Below are positions 7,772-12,331 of a DNA stretch of 12,331 nt, piece by piece (position 1 is the first letter of the stretch; each line of letters begins with the position of its first letter). The DNA comes from a virus. Lineage: Duplodnaviria; Heunggongvirae; Uroviricota; Caudoviricetes. Below the pieces are notes generated by a model, which was not told the origin of the DNA, searched no databases, and saw only the letters and a program-made list of their open reading frames with translations. Location of the stretch: IMG/VR virus record IMGVR_UViG_2675903368_000015, one strand, 5' to 3'. A program made the translations under genes and the position numbers.

Positions 7772-8794
7772 TTAATACGCATTTAATTTAAATTTGTATT
7801 TGCCTTCTATGTAATGGATAAATTCAATTATGCTTTTTTCTATCGCATCTAATATATGAATATATCCATCCCGATTTAAGGTCCTATCCAACTCAAAGTG
7901 ATGAACTATCCCATGTCTATATTGTATGATTTCAGAAATTCGATTCTCAAGAAAATCAACTGATTTTCCAATTCTTTTTTTCTTATAAAGAATCGCTCTC
8001 ACATCTATATCCAGCCACTCTTTATATGCTTTGTTTAGGTGGGTTAAGTTTTGAAAAGTGTAATTTCTTGCAATAACACTTTCTATTGAAATATTTCCTT
8101 TCTCTATCTCAAGCAGAATATCAAAATCAACTTTTTGCTTATACGATGTTCTTTTTGCTATTGCGAAAGGATCGTACTTTATAAGTATTTGAAAAGCTCT
8201 AGAGAAAAAGTATTCAAACATAGCAACCGCAAAAGGTACTAATCCATTATATATAACTCTACTGGGATCCATACATTGCATGTAATCAAAGTATTCGGAT
8301 AAACCGCCATCTTCCGGTAGGTTTAATTTAATAGAAGGTTCAGGTAAGGCATGTTTAACAGCGGAAATCTCATGATGGACATGATTAAATATTGAAGAAA
8401 TGCCACGACTGATCGGACTACTAGAATCCTTCCATAGAGGAGCGTACCTATTTTTCCCATAATCACCTATAAGTGTTCCACCAAAAAGACTCCTTGCGCC
8501 TTTTAGAACATCATTAAGCATTTTTACATCATGCCAACTAGCGCTATATAAATTACGCACATGCAATGCCCATTTATTACCAGATATGTGTAATTCGTCA
8601 TTTGAAACAGGATATATATCAGCCGAAACTCCATCTGTAGATTTGAAGTCCGTATCATCAAACCAAGAGTAATTCAACGTTCCTTGGGGCCATTCCCTCA
8701 AATGTTTACACCTTTTAAAACCTAAATTTTCAAGGTAATTTTTAAGTTCGTTTCTAGTTGCTTTTTTAGGGTACAGCGTTATATCTCTTCCCAT
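7772..8794 (-). CDS. Hypothetical protein, 340 aa, AT-rich inserted gene between D and ogr; function unknown
   Basis: Long uninterrupted ORF on the strand opposite D and ogr; AGGTG RBS about 8 nt upstream of the ATG at 8794; base composition visibly AT-rich compared with the flanking tail genes. No family recognised by eye; contains RHGIVHH near the C-terminus. Confidence 0.75.
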   Translation of the reverse strand: MGRDITLYPKKATRNELKNYLENLGFKRCKHLREWPQGTLNYSWFDDTDFKSTDGVSADIYPVSNDELHISGNKWALHVRNLYSASWHDVKMLNDVLKGARSLFGGTLIGDYGKNRYAPLWKDSSSPISRGISSIFNHVHHEISAVKHALPEPSIKLNLPEDGGLSEYFDYMQCMDPSRVIYNGLVPFAVAMFEYFFSRAFQILIKYDPFAIAKRTSYKQKVDFDILLEIEKGNISIESVIARNYTFQNLTHLNKAYKEWLDIDVRAILYKKKRIGKSVDFLENRISEIIQYRHGIVHHFELDRTLNRDGYIHILDAIEKSIIEFIHYIEGKYKFKLNAY

Positions 8795-9577: not shown

Positions 9578-9586
9578 GGAAACCGC

Positions 9587-9608
9587 GACGGGGGAGTAAT
9601 CCCCCGTC
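9587..9608 (+). other. Perfect 9-bp stem-loop (gacggggga gtaa tcccccgtc) just 3' of the hok-like ORF
   Basis: Perfect inverted repeat with a 4-nt loop and no following U tract; could be a 3' mRNA fold-back or stability element as in hok mRNAs, or a Rho-dependent stop. Confidence 0.4.
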
Positions 9609-9658
9609 AATCGGTTGCCAGGGTAAGGTCGATAAGGCACCCTATCTCACGGCTCTAA

Positions 9659-9837: not shown

Positions 9838-10170
9838 ATGGCATTAATCAAATGTCCTGAATGCCAGAAAGAGGTGAGCGATTCAGCATTGTATTGCCCT
9901 GCTTGCGGTAAACAAATAAAAAAACTTAAGCGTTCATTTTTTGGAAAGCTCATTAAGTGGATATTTATATTATTTAATATTTTTATGATCTATACGCTTT
10001 TAGTTGGACTGGGAGGCACTAGTGAAATAATAAATAATGCTACATCCGATGCCGAAAAAGCCGGTGCAGTTATTGGTACAGGCTTAGGTTTAATTACCAT
10101 TGGAAGTTTATGGGTTATTGGCGATATCATTATCGGAATTTTAGTATTTCTTACTAAACCAAAAGGATAA
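9838..10170 (+). CDS. Small membrane protein with N-terminal zinc-ribbon (CPEC...CPAC) and two predicted transmembrane helices
   Basis: 110-aa product; N-terminal CPECQKEVSDSALYCPACGK, then two long hydrophobic segments (LIKWIFILFNIFMIYTLLVGLG and AVIGTGLGLITIGSLWVIGDIIIGILVFL); AAAGGAGG RBS 8 nt upstream; AT-rich. Confidence 0.7.
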   Translation: MALIKCPECQKEVSDSALYCPACGKQIKKLKRSFFGKLIKWIFILFNIFMIYTLLVGLGGTSEIINNATSDAEKAGAVIGTGLGLITIGSLWVIGDIIIGILVFLTKPKG

Positions 10171-10174
10171 CAAA

Positions 10175-11068
10175 ATGAAAAATATAATTTTTTCTATAGG
10201 TGCATCATTTATATCAATTAGTGTACTGCCTGTTCACGCAGCAACTGAACATAATAACTTCAATGCAGTACTCCAGTGCCGAGCAATAGAAAATAATAAA
10301 GACAGACTTTCTTGTTACGATAAGTCAATACAACCGACTCGAACGAAAGTTGCTGAAAAATTCGAAAGCAGAGATCAATGCCCTGATGAGAAAGATGATG
10401 ACAGACGTTTATCTTGTTATGATCGTTTTTTTTCTCCAACATTTACTCCATCTGTAAACTCAAAATCTAAAACGGAAAAGCCAGTAACAACAGAGGCTCA
10501 GCAACCAAATCTTTCTGAGATATCTAAATGCCGAGCAGAAAATGATAAAGAAGCCAGACTAAACTGCTACGATAAACTATTCCCACAGGATAAAGCTGTT
10601 CAAGCTGAATCAAAATTAGAGAAAGCCACAGATGTAGGAAAATGGCACACATCCATTACTACATCGCCAATTGATGATTCGAAAAATGTAATTTTATCGT
10701 TAGAAAGTGATGATTATATCAGAACTCCATTTGGAGAAGCGGTTACTCCCACTCTGTTTATAGCTTGCCGAGAAAAGAAAACCGAAGTATTTCTTAGTTG
10801 GGATGTATATTTAGGCCTTGAACAAACCAGCATGCTTTATCGTCTTGATAAACAGAAAGCAGTTGAGCGAAACTGGCTAGTATCTACAGATACAAAGGCT
10901 GTTTTTTATAAAGGTAATGACATTGATTTCATCCGAAAACTAGCCAACTCAAACAAAATGTATACAAAAATAACTCCTTATAATGAGAGCCCTGTAAGTG
11001 CAACTTTCAATTTAAACGGCCTGTCAAACGCGCTAAAACCACTTCAAGCTGCTTGTAACTGGAAATAG
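10175..11068 (+). CDS. Secreted protein with three tandem Cys-pair repeats and a C-terminal domain of unknown function
   Basis: 297-aa product; start is 4 nt after the upstream stop, with an AAAAGGA RBS (operon-like); N-terminal signal peptide MKNIIFSIGASFISISVLPVHA with AXA-type cleavage site and no lipobox; three repeats of C-x9-RL-x-CYD (CRAIENNKDRLSCYD, CPDEKDDDRRLSCYD, CRAENDKEARLNCYD); C-terminal Cys pair (IACREK ... AACNWK). Confidence 0.75.
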   Translation: MKNIIFSIGASFISISVLPVHAATEHNNFNAVLQCRAIENNKDRLSCYDKSIQPTRTKVAEKFESRDQCPDEKDDDRRLSCYDRFFSPTFTPSVNSKSKTEKPVTTEAQQPNLSEISKCRAENDKEARLNCYDKLFPQDKAVQAESKLEKATDVGKWHTSITTSPIDDSKNVILSLESDDYIRTPFGEAVTPTLFIACREKKTEVFLSWDVYLGLEQTSMLYRLDKQKAVERNWLVSTDTKAVFYKGNDIDFIRKLANSNKMYTKITPYNESPVSATFNLNGLSNALKPLQAACNWK

Positions 11069-11095
11069 CATAAATCATGTGGCTTAGCCACAATC

Positions 11096-11139
11096 ACAGA
11101 TAACACAAAGCCCGTGAAAACGGGCTTTGTGTTATCTGT
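11096..11139. repeat. Perfect 19-bp inverted repeat (acagataacacaaagcccg / cgggctttgtgttatctgt) with a 6-nt loop; possible bidirectional terminator or protein-binding site
   Basis: Arms at 11096..11114 and 11121..11139 are exact reverse complements; no U tract on either side. Immediately preceded by a second small palindrome GTGGCTtAGCCAC (11079..11091). Confidence 0.5.
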
Positions 11140-11279
11140 AACTCGAAAATGTGGTCACTACGTGGACACGTGCTGATATAAATCCTTTTATATCAATAAA
11201 TTAAATCATCATTTTTTTCATCAACAAGGATTTTCACGTTTGTGTTACCTGTATGAGACGAGAGTTAACCAGACAAGTG

Positions 11280-11288
11280 TGCCATAAT
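11280..11288 (+). promoter_or_regulatory. Candidate extended -10 element (TGcCATAAT) for flk
   Basis: TG at 11280..11281 and CATAAT at 11283..11288, about 47 nt upstream of the flk ATG; no convincing -35. Confidence 0.3.
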
Positions 11289-11335
11289 CTCGCGGCCAGG
11301 CATACTTGCGAAGATTTCAGGTATAAGGATACGTA

Positions 11336-12331
11336 ATGATACAACCTATTTCCGGTCCTCCTCCTGGGCAACCACCAGGTCAGGGAGATAACCTGCCGTC
11401 TGGCGCAGGCAATCAGCCTTTATCCAGTCAGCAACGTACTTCGCTGGAAAGCTTAATGACGAAAGTGACCTCACTGACGCAACAACAAAGAGCAGAACTG
11501 TGGGCGGGTATCAGGCACGATATTGGTCTGTCGGGAGATTCACCGCTGCTTTCGCATCACTTCCCTGCCGCTGAGCATAATCTGGCGCAACGTCTGTTGG
11601 CCGCGCAAAAAAGCCATTCTGCCCGCCAGCTTTTAGCGCAATTAGGGGAGTATTTACGTCTGGGGAATAATCGTCAGGCGGTCACGGATTATATCCGTCA
11701 TAACTTTGGTCAGACGCCGCTGAATCAGCTCTCACCGGAGCAATTAAAAACCATTCTCACCCTGTTGCAGGAAGGGAAGATGGTTATTCCGCAACCACAG
11801 CAGCGCGAGGCGACCGACCGTCCTTTATTACCGGCGGAGCACAATGCGCTCAAACAGCTGGTGACCAAACTTGCGGCAGCAACGGGGGAACCCAGCAAAC
11901 AGATCTGGCAATCGATGCTGGAACTTTCCGGGGTGAAAGATGGCGAGTTAATTCCAGCGAAACTGTTTAACCATCTGGTGACCTGGCTACAGGCGCGTCA
12001 GACGCTAAGCCAGCAAAATACGCCGACACTGGAATCACTACAGATGGCGCTAAAACAACCTTTAGATGCCAGTGAACTGGCGGCGTTATCGGCATATATC
12101 CAGCAAAAATATGGCCTTTCTGCGCAATCATCGCTTTCTTCTGCCCAGGCCGAGGATATTCTTAACCAGCTTTATCAACGGCGGGTTAAAGGGATTGAGC
12201 CGCGTGATATGCAACCGCTGCTTAATCCTTTTCCACCGATGATGGACACGTTGCAAAATATGGCAACGCGTCCCGCGCTGTGGATACTGTTAGTCGCGAT
12301 TATCCTGATTCTGGTCTGGCTGGTTCGTTAA
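11336..12331 (+). CDS. flk: Flagellar regulator Flk (C-terminally membrane-anchored)
   Basis: 331-aa product beginning MIQPISGPPPGQPPGQGDN..., Gln-rich, ending in a hydrophobic anchor RPALWILLVAIILILVWLVR; matches my recollection of E. coli Flk; AAGGA RBS 7 nt upstream. Confidence 0.7.
   Translation: MIQPISGPPPGQPPGQGDNLPSGAGNQPLSSQQRTSLESLMTKVTSLTQQQRAELWAGIRHDIGLSGDSPLLSHHFPAAEHNLAQRLLAAQKSHSARQLLAQLGEYLRLGNNRQAVTDYIRHNFGQTPLNQLSPEQLKTILTLLQEGKMVIPQPQQREATDRPLLPAEHNALKQLVTKLAAATGEPSKQIWQSMLELSGVKDGELIPAKLFNHLVTWLQARQTLSQQNTPTLESLQMALKQPLDASELAALSAYIQQKYGLSAQSSLSSAQAEDILNQLYQRRVKGIEPRDMQPLLNPFPPMMDTLQNMATRPALWILLVAIILILVWLVR

What the first reader, a model, noticed from the sequence alone, without database searches (positions are those of the whole stretch)
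11079..11139. Unusually long perfect palindrome (19-bp arms) between the cassette and flk
Immediately after the secreted-protein gene there is a small palindrome GTGGCTtAGCCAC followed by a perfect 19-bp inverted repeat with a 6-nt loop. A 19-bp perfect stem is longer than typical intrinsic terminators and has no U tract on either side. It could be a bidirectional transcription barrier or an RNA stability element, a recombination or attachment-related site marking the edge of the acquired DNA, or a regulator binding site. Its position at the boundary between AT-rich cargo and the core gene flk makes a boundary role plausible.
Basis: seen in the sequence. Interest (0 to 1): 0.4.

Follow-up and report, generated by a model that had tools for sequence, protein, structure and literature searches.

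The report
Two-way terminator beside prophage attachment site
The long palindrome is most likely an ordinary two-way transcription stop signal at the end of a P2-like prophage's cargo genes, just inside its attachment site, with an unusually long stem but no sign of a new kind of element.

Summary
The palindrome is real. It has 20-bp perfect arms (11096-11115 / 11120-11139) and a GAAA loop, far beyond chance. It is not at the prophage/host junction. The window is the right end of a P2-like (P88/phiSM-type) prophage inserted in the 5' end of pdxB. The att core is at 11215-11234, 75 bp further right. Prophage-free E. coli lack the palindrome. It starts 27 nt after the stop codon of a VasI-domain cargo gene and ends 10 nt before the Int arm-type repeats of the attP P arm. 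In the phage P2 reference genome this same slot holds the annotated 'rho-independent terminator for ogr transcript and F operon'. The inner GC stem GCCCGT-GAAA-ACGGGC is followed on both strands by TTTGTGTT, and the A-rich and T-rich tails pair to lengthen the stem, as in bidirectional terminators. Related phages with other cargo carry different terminator-like hairpins at the same spot. A diverged lineage keeps the stem through three double changes, and another has the loop inverted. Best reading: a bidirectional intrinsic terminator that insulates cargo/late genes from attP, int and host promoters. A sib-like or RNA-stabilising role for the extra stem length is not excluded. This is an ordinary element.

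The parts
10175..11068 (+). Cargo gene upstream of the hairpin. It encodes a 297-aa protein with a signal-peptide-like N-terminus and a VasI domain. RefSeq names it 'T6SS-associated protein TagO'. It is the last gene before attR.
   Evidence: ORF list. Pfam VasI PF11319 at E = 2.6e-25, residues 118-296. Translation. RefSeq annotation.
11078..11092 (.). Small palindrome TGTGGC-TTA-GCCACA. It is not conserved: it carries a mismatch in one lineage and is deleted in the P88/E07 lineage. On the - strand it is followed by TGATTTATGC, so it could be a weak back-up terminator.
11096..11139 (.). Perfect palindrome with 20-bp arms and a 4-nt loop (GAAA on the + strand, UUUC on the - strand). This is the finding.
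11110..11125 (.). Inner GC-rich stem-loop GCCCGT-GAAA-ACGGGC, which I take to be the functional terminator hairpin. The flanking AAA/TTT extend it to 9 bp.
   Evidence: TransTermHP-type hairpin score -10.4 on both strands.
11126..11139 (+). T-rich tail for rightward (cargo/late) transcripts: TTTGTGTTATCTGT. Predicted RNA 3' ends are near 11132-11134.
   Evidence: Tail score -4.33 against a threshold of -2.5. The 3'-end position is inferred.
11096..11109 (-). The same T-rich tail read on the - strand (complement of ACAGATAACACAAA), for leftward transcripts. Predicted RNA 3' ends are near 11103-11101.
   Evidence: Tail score -4.33. The 3'-end position is inferred.
11150..11168 (+). Int arm-type direct repeats of the attP P arm, TGTGGTCA and CGTGGACA. 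They match the P2-type consensus tgTGGaCa.
   Evidence: Alignment with the annotated P2 'Int P arm'. Consensus taken from PMC3448106.
11174..11207 (+). IHF-site homologue, TGATATAAATCCTTTTATATCAATAAATTAAATC. P2 has AGAAATAAATCCTTTTATTTCAATTTATTG at the matching position.
   Evidence: Homology to the P2 annotated IHF site. Binding was not tested.
11215..11234 (.). att core shared by attR, attL, attB and attP: TTTTCATCAACAAGGATTTT. This is the real prophage/host junction. It contains the 17-bp phiSM att site.
   Evidence: Four-way alignment. Empty-site comparison. PMC6456863.
11215..11238 (-). Orphaned first 24 nt of native pdxB (GTG start at 11238-11236), left at attR together with the native upstream region.
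   Evidence: J53 empty site. PMC6456863.
11336..12331 (+). flk, a host core gene.

Best explanation
The palindrome is a bidirectional Rho-independent (intrinsic) transcription terminator. It closes the cargo/late-gene side of a P2-like prophage immediately before the P arm of its attachment site. On either strand RNA polymerase transcribes the GC-rich inner hairpin GCCCGU-(GAAA or UUUC)-ACGGGC and then the U-rich run UUUGUGUU, where the transcript is released. The upstream A-rich run is the complement of the U-rich run, which any two-way terminator needs, so the two tails can pair. This makes the element read as a 20-bp perfect palindrome. In the lysogen (this window) it ends cargo and late (ogr/F-operon-type) transcripts before they reach attR, the pdxB-flk control region and flk. 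It should also stop leftward transcription from the orphaned native pdxB promoter region from running antisense into the prophage. In the circular phage it lies between the convergent cargo genes and the C-int operon, across attP from int. Shown here: the structure, its position, its conservation and covariation, its terminator-grade scores, and its positional equivalence to the annotated P2 terminator. Inferred: actual termination, the 3'-end positions, and read-in from the pdxB promoter. The released RNA would end in a stem of about 14-15 bp, which probably also protects it from 3' exonucleases (inferred).
For: (1) Context. The window is the right end of a Peduoviridae prophage with gpD, ogr, hok, a Zn-ribbon gene, a VasI gene, then flk. 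The att core lies at 11215-11234.
(2) Positional homology. In the P2 reference annotation the 'rho-independent terminator for ogr transcript and F operon' is followed 4 nt later by the Int P-arm site, the IHF site and the attP core. The alignment shows the window's Int repeats and IHF region are homologous to P2's, and the palindrome occupies the terminator slot. Phage 186 has tB in the same slot, plus a separate minus-strand 'predicted terminator of lysogenic operon' across attP from int.
(3) Scores. With TransTermHP-type scoring the inner hairpin and tail score -10.4 / -4.33 on both strands. These are the top candidates in the whole window on each strand. The annotated P2 terminator scores -12.7 / -5.30 (+) and -12.7 / -4.43 (-). 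Published thresholds are hairpin <= -2 and tail <= -2.5.
(4) The TransTermHP paper states that the A-tails and T-tails of bidirectional terminators hybridise and extend the apparent stem. PMC10325885 cites Chen et al. for A-tract/U-tract pairing in strong terminators.
(5) Related phages with the same P arm but other cargo (for example Chuche, com/methyltransferase) carry different AAAGCCCG...CGGGCTTT hairpins ending 8 nt before the same P-arm sequence (CTCGAAAATGTGG). All five types that include an intact hairpin score as terminators on the - strand, and four of the five on the + strand.
(6) Convergent layout in the free phage P88_4B11: VasI gene (+), hairpin, attP, int (-).
(7) The stem is maintained. 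The P88/E07 lineage differs at three pairs, each changed on both sides, and keeps GC stem + TTTTGTCAT.
(8) It sits 27 nt after the stop codon.
Against: No transcript 3' ends are available, so termination is not shown. The simple consensus scan did not call it, because it takes the full stem and finds no T run beyond it. The U tract is interrupted (UUUGUGUU), which is weaker than P2's UUUUUUGU. A plain two-way terminator needs only A-rich and T-rich tails, not perfect complementarity at the non-T positions. Yet the outer 11 bp are perfectly paired and two of the three double changes fall there, so something beyond termination maintains the long stem. That could be RNA function or DNA-level template switching. 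A second hairpin just downstream of int in the P' arm could end some int transcripts earlier.
Confidence: 0.7

Rival explanations
1. The element is a sib-like retroregulator or RNA-processing site. The full 20-24-bp helix, formed on the leftward (int-sense) transcript that crosses attP in the circular phage, would be an RNase III substrate, or else a 3' stabiliser, that sets int mRNA stability. Integration separates it from int, as with lambda sib/tI. Termination would be secondary.
For: The geometry matches lambda sib. The element lies across attP from int, about 276 nt beyond the int stop in the free phage, and integration moves it to the other prophage end. A 20-bp perfect helix is about two turns of dsRNA, the size E. 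coli RNase III acts on (established knowledge). The - strand helix is longer, 24 pairs including G-U. The two single-sided natural variants both give G-U on the - strand RNA but C-A mismatches on the + strand RNA. That is n = 2, with chance about 0.25. The outer stem covaries although termination does not need it.
Against: I know of no processive antitermination of the C-int operon in P2-type phages, and lambda's mechanism needs it. Related phages with other cargo have only 7-11-bp hairpins at this position, so a long helix is not a conserved requirement of this int/attP module. The hairpin travels with the cargo cassette, not with int. No RNase III data exist. My recollection is that P2 int is controlled by Int binding its own attP-containing mRNA (Yu et al. 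1994), but the paper is not held.
Confidence: 0.12
2. The extra stem length is a neutral by-product of DNA-level palindrome dynamics. Template switching or intrastrand recombination between the arms would homogenise them, with no function beyond an ordinary terminator or none at all.
For: FY10-type prophages carry identical arms with the loop inverted, TTTC instead of GAAA. About 17 genomes match this form at >= 99%. This needs an inversion between the arms rather than point mutations. The same process copies a change from one arm to the other and would produce 'compensatory' pairs without selection. All three double changes belong to a single lineage.
Against: This explains how perfection is kept, but not why a hairpin occupies this conserved slot in every related phage. 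Uncorrected single-sided changes do persist in large lineages, for example the ATCTAT form.
Confidence: 0.1
3. The element is a recombination, attachment or protein-binding site (an Int, Cox, IHF or Ogr operator, or an integron attC-like cassette site) that marks the edge of the acquired DNA.
For: It abuts the attP P arm (10 nt from the first Int repeat). It also lies exactly where homology between phages with different cargo resumes.
Against: The att core and the crossover lie 75 bp away. The arm-type consensus tgTGGaCa is not present in the palindrome. The P2 annotation places no protein site on its terminator. The sequence covaries rather than being conserved. AGATAAC/GTTATCT do not fit the attC RYYYAAC/GTTRRRY boxes, and attC sites are imperfect palindromes (direct reading plus established knowledge).
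Confidence: 0.04
4. The element is a dispersed repeat (REP/BIME-like element or MITE) that happens to lie here.
For: It is palindromic and extragenic.
Against: There is one locus per genome. The '2 places' per record are the two strands of the same palindrome. It is found in only 237 of 5,426 E. coli genomes. In every record listed or read, and where a feature was annotated, it lies after the VasI-domain gene. There is a single copy in the window and no Rfam family match.
Confidence: 0.02

Closest known systems
Phage P2 'rho-independent terminator for ogr transcript and F operon' (NC_001895 24265-24288)
   Same: It holds the same slot: after the last rightward gene and a few nt before the Int P-arm repeats, IHF site and attP core, with int convergent on the other side. 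It has the same build, with an A-rich run, a GC-rich stem, a 4-nt loop and a T-rich run. It scores as a terminator on both strands.
   Different: The P2 stem is 7-10 bp with an uninterrupted T6 run. Here the A and T tails are perfectly complementary, giving 20 bp, and the T run is interrupted. The sequences are not alignable apart from AAAGCCC...GGGCTT. Here the upstream gene is a cargo gene, not ogr.
Phage 186 tB terminator plus 'predicted terminator of lysogenic operon' at attP (NC_001317)
   Same: It terminates late/B-gene transcription just before the Int arm sites. A minus-strand terminator for the cI-int operon lies across the attP core from int. This covers both directions proposed here.
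   Different: In 186 these are two separate hairpins. Here one symmetric hairpin would serve both directions.
Bidirectional intrinsic terminators between convergent genes (TransTermHP description, PMC1852404; Ju et al. 2019 as cited in bioRxiv 10.1101/2022.10.23.513370)
   Same: They lie between convergent transcription units. [quoted passage not shown]
   Different: Typical E. coli terminator stems are 7-8 bp (PMC10325885). A 20-bp perfect stem is at the long extreme.
Lambda tI / sib retroregulatory site
   Same: It lies across attP from int and is separated from int by integration. It is a terminator hairpin that becomes a longer helix if read through (geometry; lambda facts from established knowledge).
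   Different: No antitermination system or RNase III dependence is known or tested here. The element travels with the cargo cassette, not with int.
Long-stem, antitermination-resistant terminators (TerR of pLS20, PMC10325885)
   Same: They are end-of-operon terminators whose stems of more than 14 bp are far longer than average.
   Different: TerR has a 15-bp stem followed by 10 U and acts against a defined antitermination system in Bacillus. No such system is linked to this locus.

Membership tests
Rho-independent (intrinsic) terminator | GC-rich stem-loop with a short loop | tested here: met
   The inner stem GCCCGT/ACGGGC has 5 G-C pairs of 6. AAA/TTT extend it to 9 bp. The loop is a GAAA tetraloop. 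Hairpin score is -10.4 against a threshold of -2.
Rho-independent (intrinsic) terminator | U-rich tract immediately 3' of the hairpin | tested here: met
   TTTGTGTT follows the inner stem. Tail score is -4.33 against a threshold of -2.5. The feature is not met if the whole 20-bp stem is taken as the hairpin: the consensus scan made no call.
Rho-independent (intrinsic) terminator | Lies just downstream of a coding region or at an operon end | tested here: met
   It starts 27 nt after the TAG of the last prophage gene. It occupies the same slot as the annotated P2 and 186 terminators.
Rho-independent (intrinsic) terminator | Transcripts end in the U tract; RNA polymerase releases without Rho | not testable with these tools
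   This needs Term-seq, 3'-RACE or in vitro transcription.
Bidirectional terminator | Hairpin plus T-rich tail on both strands (A-tail complementary to T-tail) | tested here: met
   Scores are identical on both strands, -10.4 / -4.33.
Bidirectional terminator | Sits between convergent transcription units | tested here: met
   In free phage P88_4B11 the VasI gene (+) and int/C (-) converge on it. In the lysogen the convergent partner would be the orphaned pdxB promoter region. That is inferred, from a weak 8/12 promoter match and from PMC6456863.
Lambda sib-type retroregulator | Located beyond attP from int, so that integration uncouples it from int | tested here: met
Lambda sib-type retroregulator | RNase III cleavage of the read-through helix, causing int mRNA decay | not testable with these tools
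   Only the helix length (20-24 bp) is compatible with this.
Lambda sib-type retroregulator | Antiterminated transcripts read through, while terminated ones are stable | not tested
   I know of no antitermination of the C-int operon in P2-type phages (my own knowledge).
att site component (core or Int arm-type site) | Core identical in attP, attB, attL and attR; arm sites match tgTGGaCa | tested here: not met
   The core is at 11215-11234 and the arm repeats at 11150-11168, both outside the palindrome.
REP / MITE dispersed repeat | Many copies per genome in unrelated intergenic contexts | tested here: not met
   One locus per genome, in 237 of 5,426 genomes. In every record listed or read, and where a feature was annotated, it lies after the VasI-domain gene.
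Integron attC site | Imperfect palindrome with RYYYAAC ... GTTRRRY boxes and extrahelical bases | tested here: not met
   By direct reading, AGATAAC/GTTATCT do not fit the boxes, and the stem is perfect. No integron integrase was seen in the features examined: the RefSeq table for the right ~20 kb of the prophage and family scans of five window ORFs.
Any Rfam RNA family | Covariance-model match at the gathering score | tested here: not met
   There were 0 matches in the whole window.

The most novel reading that the evidence does not exclude
The perfect 20-24-bp helix may be selected in its own right, beyond what termination needs. One option is a sib-like RNase III or stability switch on the int-sense (- strand) transcript, uncoupled from int by integration. 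Another is a 'hardened' long-stem barrier that stops read-through or antiterminated polymerases at the prophage edge. The three double changes, the G-U-only variants on the - strand and the inverted-loop form would then reflect selection for an orientation-independent long helix in a P2-type phage, for which I know of no described retroregulation of this kind.
Probability: 0.1. Interest if true: 0.45.

Novelty: new member of a known kind. Interest (0 to 1): 0.15.

Why it matters
The main value is a corrected annotation. The long palindrome is not a junction or attachment feature. The real junction is the 20-bp core inside the pdxB start, 75 bp further right. The 'missing U tract' is hidden inside the stem. 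This shows how simple terminator scans and readers can miss a two-way terminator whose tails pair. Practically, the element marks the end of the cargo ('moron') transcription unit. It is also the likely insulator between the prophage and the pdxB-flk control region. If the extra stem length proved functional, through RNase III or RNA stability, it would add a lambda-like layer to int control in P2-type phages. The present evidence does not require that.

Tried and rejected
- The Rfam scan of the whole window found nothing.
- The built-in terminator scan did not call the long hairpin, because it counts the full stem and then looks for T's. It called only the small palindrome on the - strand. 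I therefore re-scored with a TransTermHP-type scheme.
- The genome-contig scan with the VasI-domain protein returned one contig only, a 'Planococcaceae' MAG contig. Over the stretch read, from the end of the VasI gene into flk, it differs from the E. coli window at only two bases, and its encoded protein is 100% identical.
- The generic core GCCCGTGAAAACGGGC occurs in many unrelated viral contigs and is not diagnostic.
- I looked for the palindrome with a different attP or without the cargo gene and found none. Every hit listed or read carries the same P arm, and those with an annotated feature under the match lie after the VasI gene. The plasmid copy is a prophage remnant at a secondary site.
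- I considered attC-like, REP-like and att-site readings and rejected them (see the membership table).
- I tried to fetch Yu et al. 1994 on P2 int regulation, but it is not held. The literature search on sib gave nothing specific to P2-type phages.
- The phiSM paper describes the pdxB att site and pdxB rescue but does not mention any terminator.

Full report
**Observation**

The sequence at 11096-11139 is ACAGATAACACAAAGCCCGT-GAAA-ACGGGCTTTGTGTTATCTGT. It has two 20-nt arms that are 100% complementary, separated by 4 nt. The small palindrome TGTGGC-TTA-GCCACA lies at 11078-11092.

The long palindrome is unique in the window and is by far its longest inverted repeat. In 100 dinucleotide-preserving shuffles the longest perfect stem averaged 8.2 bp and reached at most 12 bp. 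The expected number of 20-bp stems is about 9e-8. Folded as RNA, 11060-11170 gives -49.3 kcal/mol on the + strand and -49.6 kcal/mol on the - strand, with z about -8.3 and -8.7.

**Where it lies**

The window matches E. coli IHE3034 exactly over the stretch queried (11040-11340). All 5,426 complete E. coli genomes share the last 126 bases before flk. Only 223 also share the sequence to the left, including the palindrome.

RefSeq annotation and my family scans show that the window is the right end of a P2-like (Peduoviridae) prophage. The genes are tail sheath, tube, tape measure, gpD, a 340-aa AT-rich ORF, ogr, hok/gef, a zinc-ribbon membrane protein, and a 297-aa signal-peptide protein with a VasI domain that RefSeq calls 'TagO'. 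After these come flk, yfcJ and fabB.

I aligned attR (window), attL (IHE3034), the empty site (J53) and attP of the free phage P88_4B11. The common core is TTTTCATCAACAAGGATTTT at window 11215-11234. This core lies inside the first codons of pdxB. A close relative, Citrobacter phage phiSM, has been shown experimentally to integrate at this 17-bp site, 6 bp into pdxB (PMC6456863).

The palindrome is therefore prophage DNA, 75 bp inside the junction. It is not a native flk-region element and not the junction itself.

**Anatomy around it**

The palindrome starts 27 nt after the TAG of the VasI-domain gene. Ten nt after it come two direct repeats, TGTGGTCA (11150-11157) and CGTGGACA (11161-11168). 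These match the P2-type Int arm-site consensus tgTGGaCa (PMC3448106). Next comes ATAAATCCTTTTATATCAAT, and then the core.

The curated P2 reference genome has exactly this order. It lists the 'rho-independent terminator for ogr transcript and F operon' (24265-24288), then 4 nt later 'Int, P arm', then 'IHF', 'attP core', 'Cox', and 'Int, P' arm' overlapping the 3' end of the convergent int gene. In the alignment, the Int repeats (P2 ATGTGGTCAATGTGTGGAC) and the IHF region (P2 AATAAATCCTTTTATTTCAAT) are conserved. The palindrome falls in the slot of the P2 terminator.

Phage 186 has the terminator tB in the same slot. It also has a separate minus-strand 'predicted terminator of lysogenic operon' across the attP core from int. 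In the free phage P88_4B11 the order is VasI gene (+), hairpin, attP, int (-), C (-), cox (+), so the hairpin lies between convergent units.

**The 'missing' U tract**

The element actually consists of a GC-rich inner hairpin, GCCCGT-GAAA-ACGGGC, followed by TTTGTGTTATCTGT. Because the arms are a perfect palindrome, the same is true on the other strand.

With the TransTermHP scheme (pair energies, tail score, and thresholds of hairpin <= -2 and tail <= -2.5; PMC1852404), the inner hairpin and tail score -10.4 / -4.33 on both strands. These are the best candidates in the whole window on each strand. The annotated P2 terminator scores -12.7 / -5.30 (+) and -12.7 / -4.43 (-).

[quoted passage not shown] Its authors discard such 'super-sequences' for that reason. 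PMC10325885 gives the average E. coli terminator stem as 7-8 bp. It cites Chen et al. for A-tract/U-tract pairing in strong terminators.

**Comparative evidence**

I anchored on the P-arm sequence CTCGAAAATGTGGTCA and recovered 57 viral contigs. The 70 nt upstream fall into a few hairpin types, apart from chance anchor hits:

- The window type, with this palindrome.
- The P88/E07 type.
- A Chuche type, after a com/methyltransferase cargo: GACAAAGCCCGCAATGTTGCGGGCTTACTC.
- Two further types: ATAAAGCCCGCATATTTTACGGGCTTTAAC and ACAAAGCCCGCAGCGTAAAAACTGCGGGCTTTTTC.

All of these hairpins end 8 nt before the same P-arm sequence, CTCGAAAATGTGG. All score as terminators on the - strand, and all but one on the + strand. 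So a terminator-like hairpin is a constant of this position, while its sequence changes with the cargo cassette. This is the expected pattern for a 'moron' that carries its own terminator.

In E. coli the palindrome occurs in 237 of 5,426 genomes, at one locus per genome. The '2 places' per record are the two strands of the same palindrome. In every record listed, the feature annotated under the match, where there is one, is the VasI-domain gene. The P arm alone occurs in 341 genomes (342 records). A plasmid copy (p120899_146) is a prophage remnant joined through a partial core to a topoisomerase pseudogene.

**Variation in the stem**

The P88/E07 lineage is about 88% identical in the flanks. 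Within the stem it differs at three pairs, and each is changed on both sides: A-T to G-C, C-G to A-T, and A-T to C-G. The GC core is kept and the tail becomes TTTTGTCAT.

On eight distinct variants, 97.5% of cells are paired and 3 pairs show double changes. Only 1 of 500 shuffles reached this, and none of the slid controls did. All three double changes belong to one lineage, so they are few events.

Four cells are unpaired, all in the outer third of the stem. The two transition variants (…ATCTAT in a large lineage, and ACAGAC in one contig) give C-A mismatches on the + strand RNA but G-U pairs on the - strand RNA. This is only n = 2, with chance about 0.25, so it is a hint and not evidence.

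FY10-type prophages have identical arms but the loop reads TTTC instead of GAAA, meaning the palindrome is inverted. About 17 genomes match that form at >= 99%. Such a flip implies exchange or template switching between the arms. That process can also copy a mutation from one arm to the other, so the 'compensatory' changes need not each reflect selection on RNA.

The small palindrome at 11078-11092 is mismatched in one lineage and deleted in the P88 lineage. It is not a conserved part of the element.

**Mechanism proposed**

This is a bidirectional intrinsic terminator and insulator.

- Rightward. Cargo transcripts and late (ogr/F-operon-type) transcripts form the inner hairpin. They are released in UUUGUGUU, with predicted ends near 11132-11134, before reaching attR, the pdxB-flk control region and flk.
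- Leftward, in the circular phage. The C-int transcript that has crossed attP meets the same hairpin and tail, with predicted ends near 11103-11101.
- Leftward, in the lysogen. Integration leaves the native pdxB start (GTG at 11238-11236) and its upstream control region at attR, pointing into the prophage. PMC6456863 reports this separation of pdxB from its native regulatory elements. I found a weak 8/12 promoter-like match, TTCGCA-17-GATTAT, at 11312-11284 on the - strand. The element would stop that transcription from running antisense through the cargo, ogr and tail genes.

After release, the RNA 3' end can pair with the A-rich run to give a stem of about 14-15 bp, which should protect it from 3' exonucleases.

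What is shown is the structure, position, conservation, scores and positional equivalence to annotated terminators. What is inferred is the termination itself, the 3'-end positions and the promoter read-in.

**Rivals**

- A sib-like or RNase III role for the full helix on the int-sense transcript. The geometry fits (across attP from int, uncoupled by integration), and so do the helix length and the - strand bias of variants. Against it, related phages with the same int/attP module make do with 7-11-bp hairpins. The hairpin travels with the cargo. I know of no antitermination for this operon. A further hairpin lies just after int in the P' arm. Probability about 0.12.
- Neutral perfection of the arms by template switching. 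This explains the perfect arms but not the conserved slot. Probability about 0.1.
- An att, recombination or protein-binding site. The core and arm sites lie elsewhere, and the stem covaries rather than conserving sequence. Probability about 0.04.
- A REP or MITE repeat. The element is single-copy and always in the same context. Probability about 0.02.

**Comparison with known elements, and novelty**

The element works like, and is positionally equivalent to, the P2 ogr/F-operon terminator and 186 tB. It has the two-way property that 186 achieves with a second hairpin. It meets the sequence-level criteria of an intrinsic and bidirectional terminator. The defining biochemical criterion, release of transcripts there, cannot be tested with these tools.

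The element has no Rfam family, and the phiSM paper does not mention any terminator. It is a new, long-stemmed instance of a well-known kind. The 20-bp perfect stem, the double changes and the loop inversion are mildly unusual details. The rest is ordinary.

**Verdict**

The 'bidirectional transcription barrier / RNA stability' option holds. The junction, attachment-site and regulator-site options do not.
- Interest is 0.15.
- Confidence in the terminator reading is 0.7.

Noticed in passing
L129 (E. coli FY10) 438-481, equivalent to window 11096-11139: The arms are the same 20 bp, but the loop is TTTC instead of GAAA on the + strand, so the whole palindrome is inverted. About 17 E. coli genomes match this form at >= 99%. 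This suggests exchange or template switching between the arms.
   Followed up: partly
window 11215-11238 and 11239-11335; attL in L125 2413-2460: The prophage cuts pdxB 6 bp after its start. The native start codon and upstream control region are left at attR, pointing into the prophage. RefSeq calls a TTG start in the phage P' arm, adding 7 aa to PdxB. This arrangement and the pdxB rescue are already described for phage phiSM (PMC6456863).
   Followed up: partly
L005 4268-4304 (P88_4B11 P' arm); L125 about 2553-2587: A second inverted repeat, GGGCAATACTGAA...TTCAGTATCGCCC, lies just downstream of the int stop, inside the P' arm. It has modest T-tails on both strands. It may end some int transcripts before attP.
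   Followed up: no
window 7772-8794 (- strand): A 340-aa ORF with 30-33% GC is inserted between gpD and ogr on the opposite strand. It has only a weak sub-threshold HEPN (RiboL-PSP) Pfam hit. It may be a defence-type moron.
   Followed up: no
window 9838-11068: The cargo pair is a zinc-ribbon membrane protein (110 aa) plus a signal-peptide protein with a C-terminal VasI domain (297 aa). RefSeq names the latter 'T6SS-associated protein TagO', although no T6SS genes are nearby. It falls below the NCBIfam VasI cutoff (75.9 vs 124.2 bits).
   Followed up: partly
L126 (DEQA01000038.1, 'Planococcaceae bacterium UBA3378' MAG contig): This 4.2-kb contig encodes a VasI-domain protein 100% identical to the window's. 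Its DNA through attR into flk differs from the window at only two bases over the stretch read. It is almost certainly contamination or mis-binning in the MAG.
   Followed up: no
L128 (plasmid p120899_146) 1011-3180: This is a prophage remnant: ogr, hok, Zn-ribbon gene, a split VasI gene, the same hairpin and the P arm. It is joined through a partial core (…CATCAACAAGGAT|C) to a topoisomerase pseudogene, which indicates integration at a secondary att site on a plasmid.
   Followed up: no
window 11180-11200 vs 11213-11233: An imperfect inverted repeat (76%) links the IHF-site region of the P arm (AAATCCTTTTATATCAATAAA) and the att core (TTTTTTCATCAACAAGGATTT). The same P-arm sequence occurs in P2, whose core is unrelated, so this is probably coincidental.
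   Followed up: partly
window 9586-9609 (- strand): A terminator-like hairpin, TGACGGGGGATTACTCCCCCGTCG, lies on the minus strand just downstream of the hok/gef gene. It may belong to the hok/sok-type antisense RNA system.
   Followed up: no
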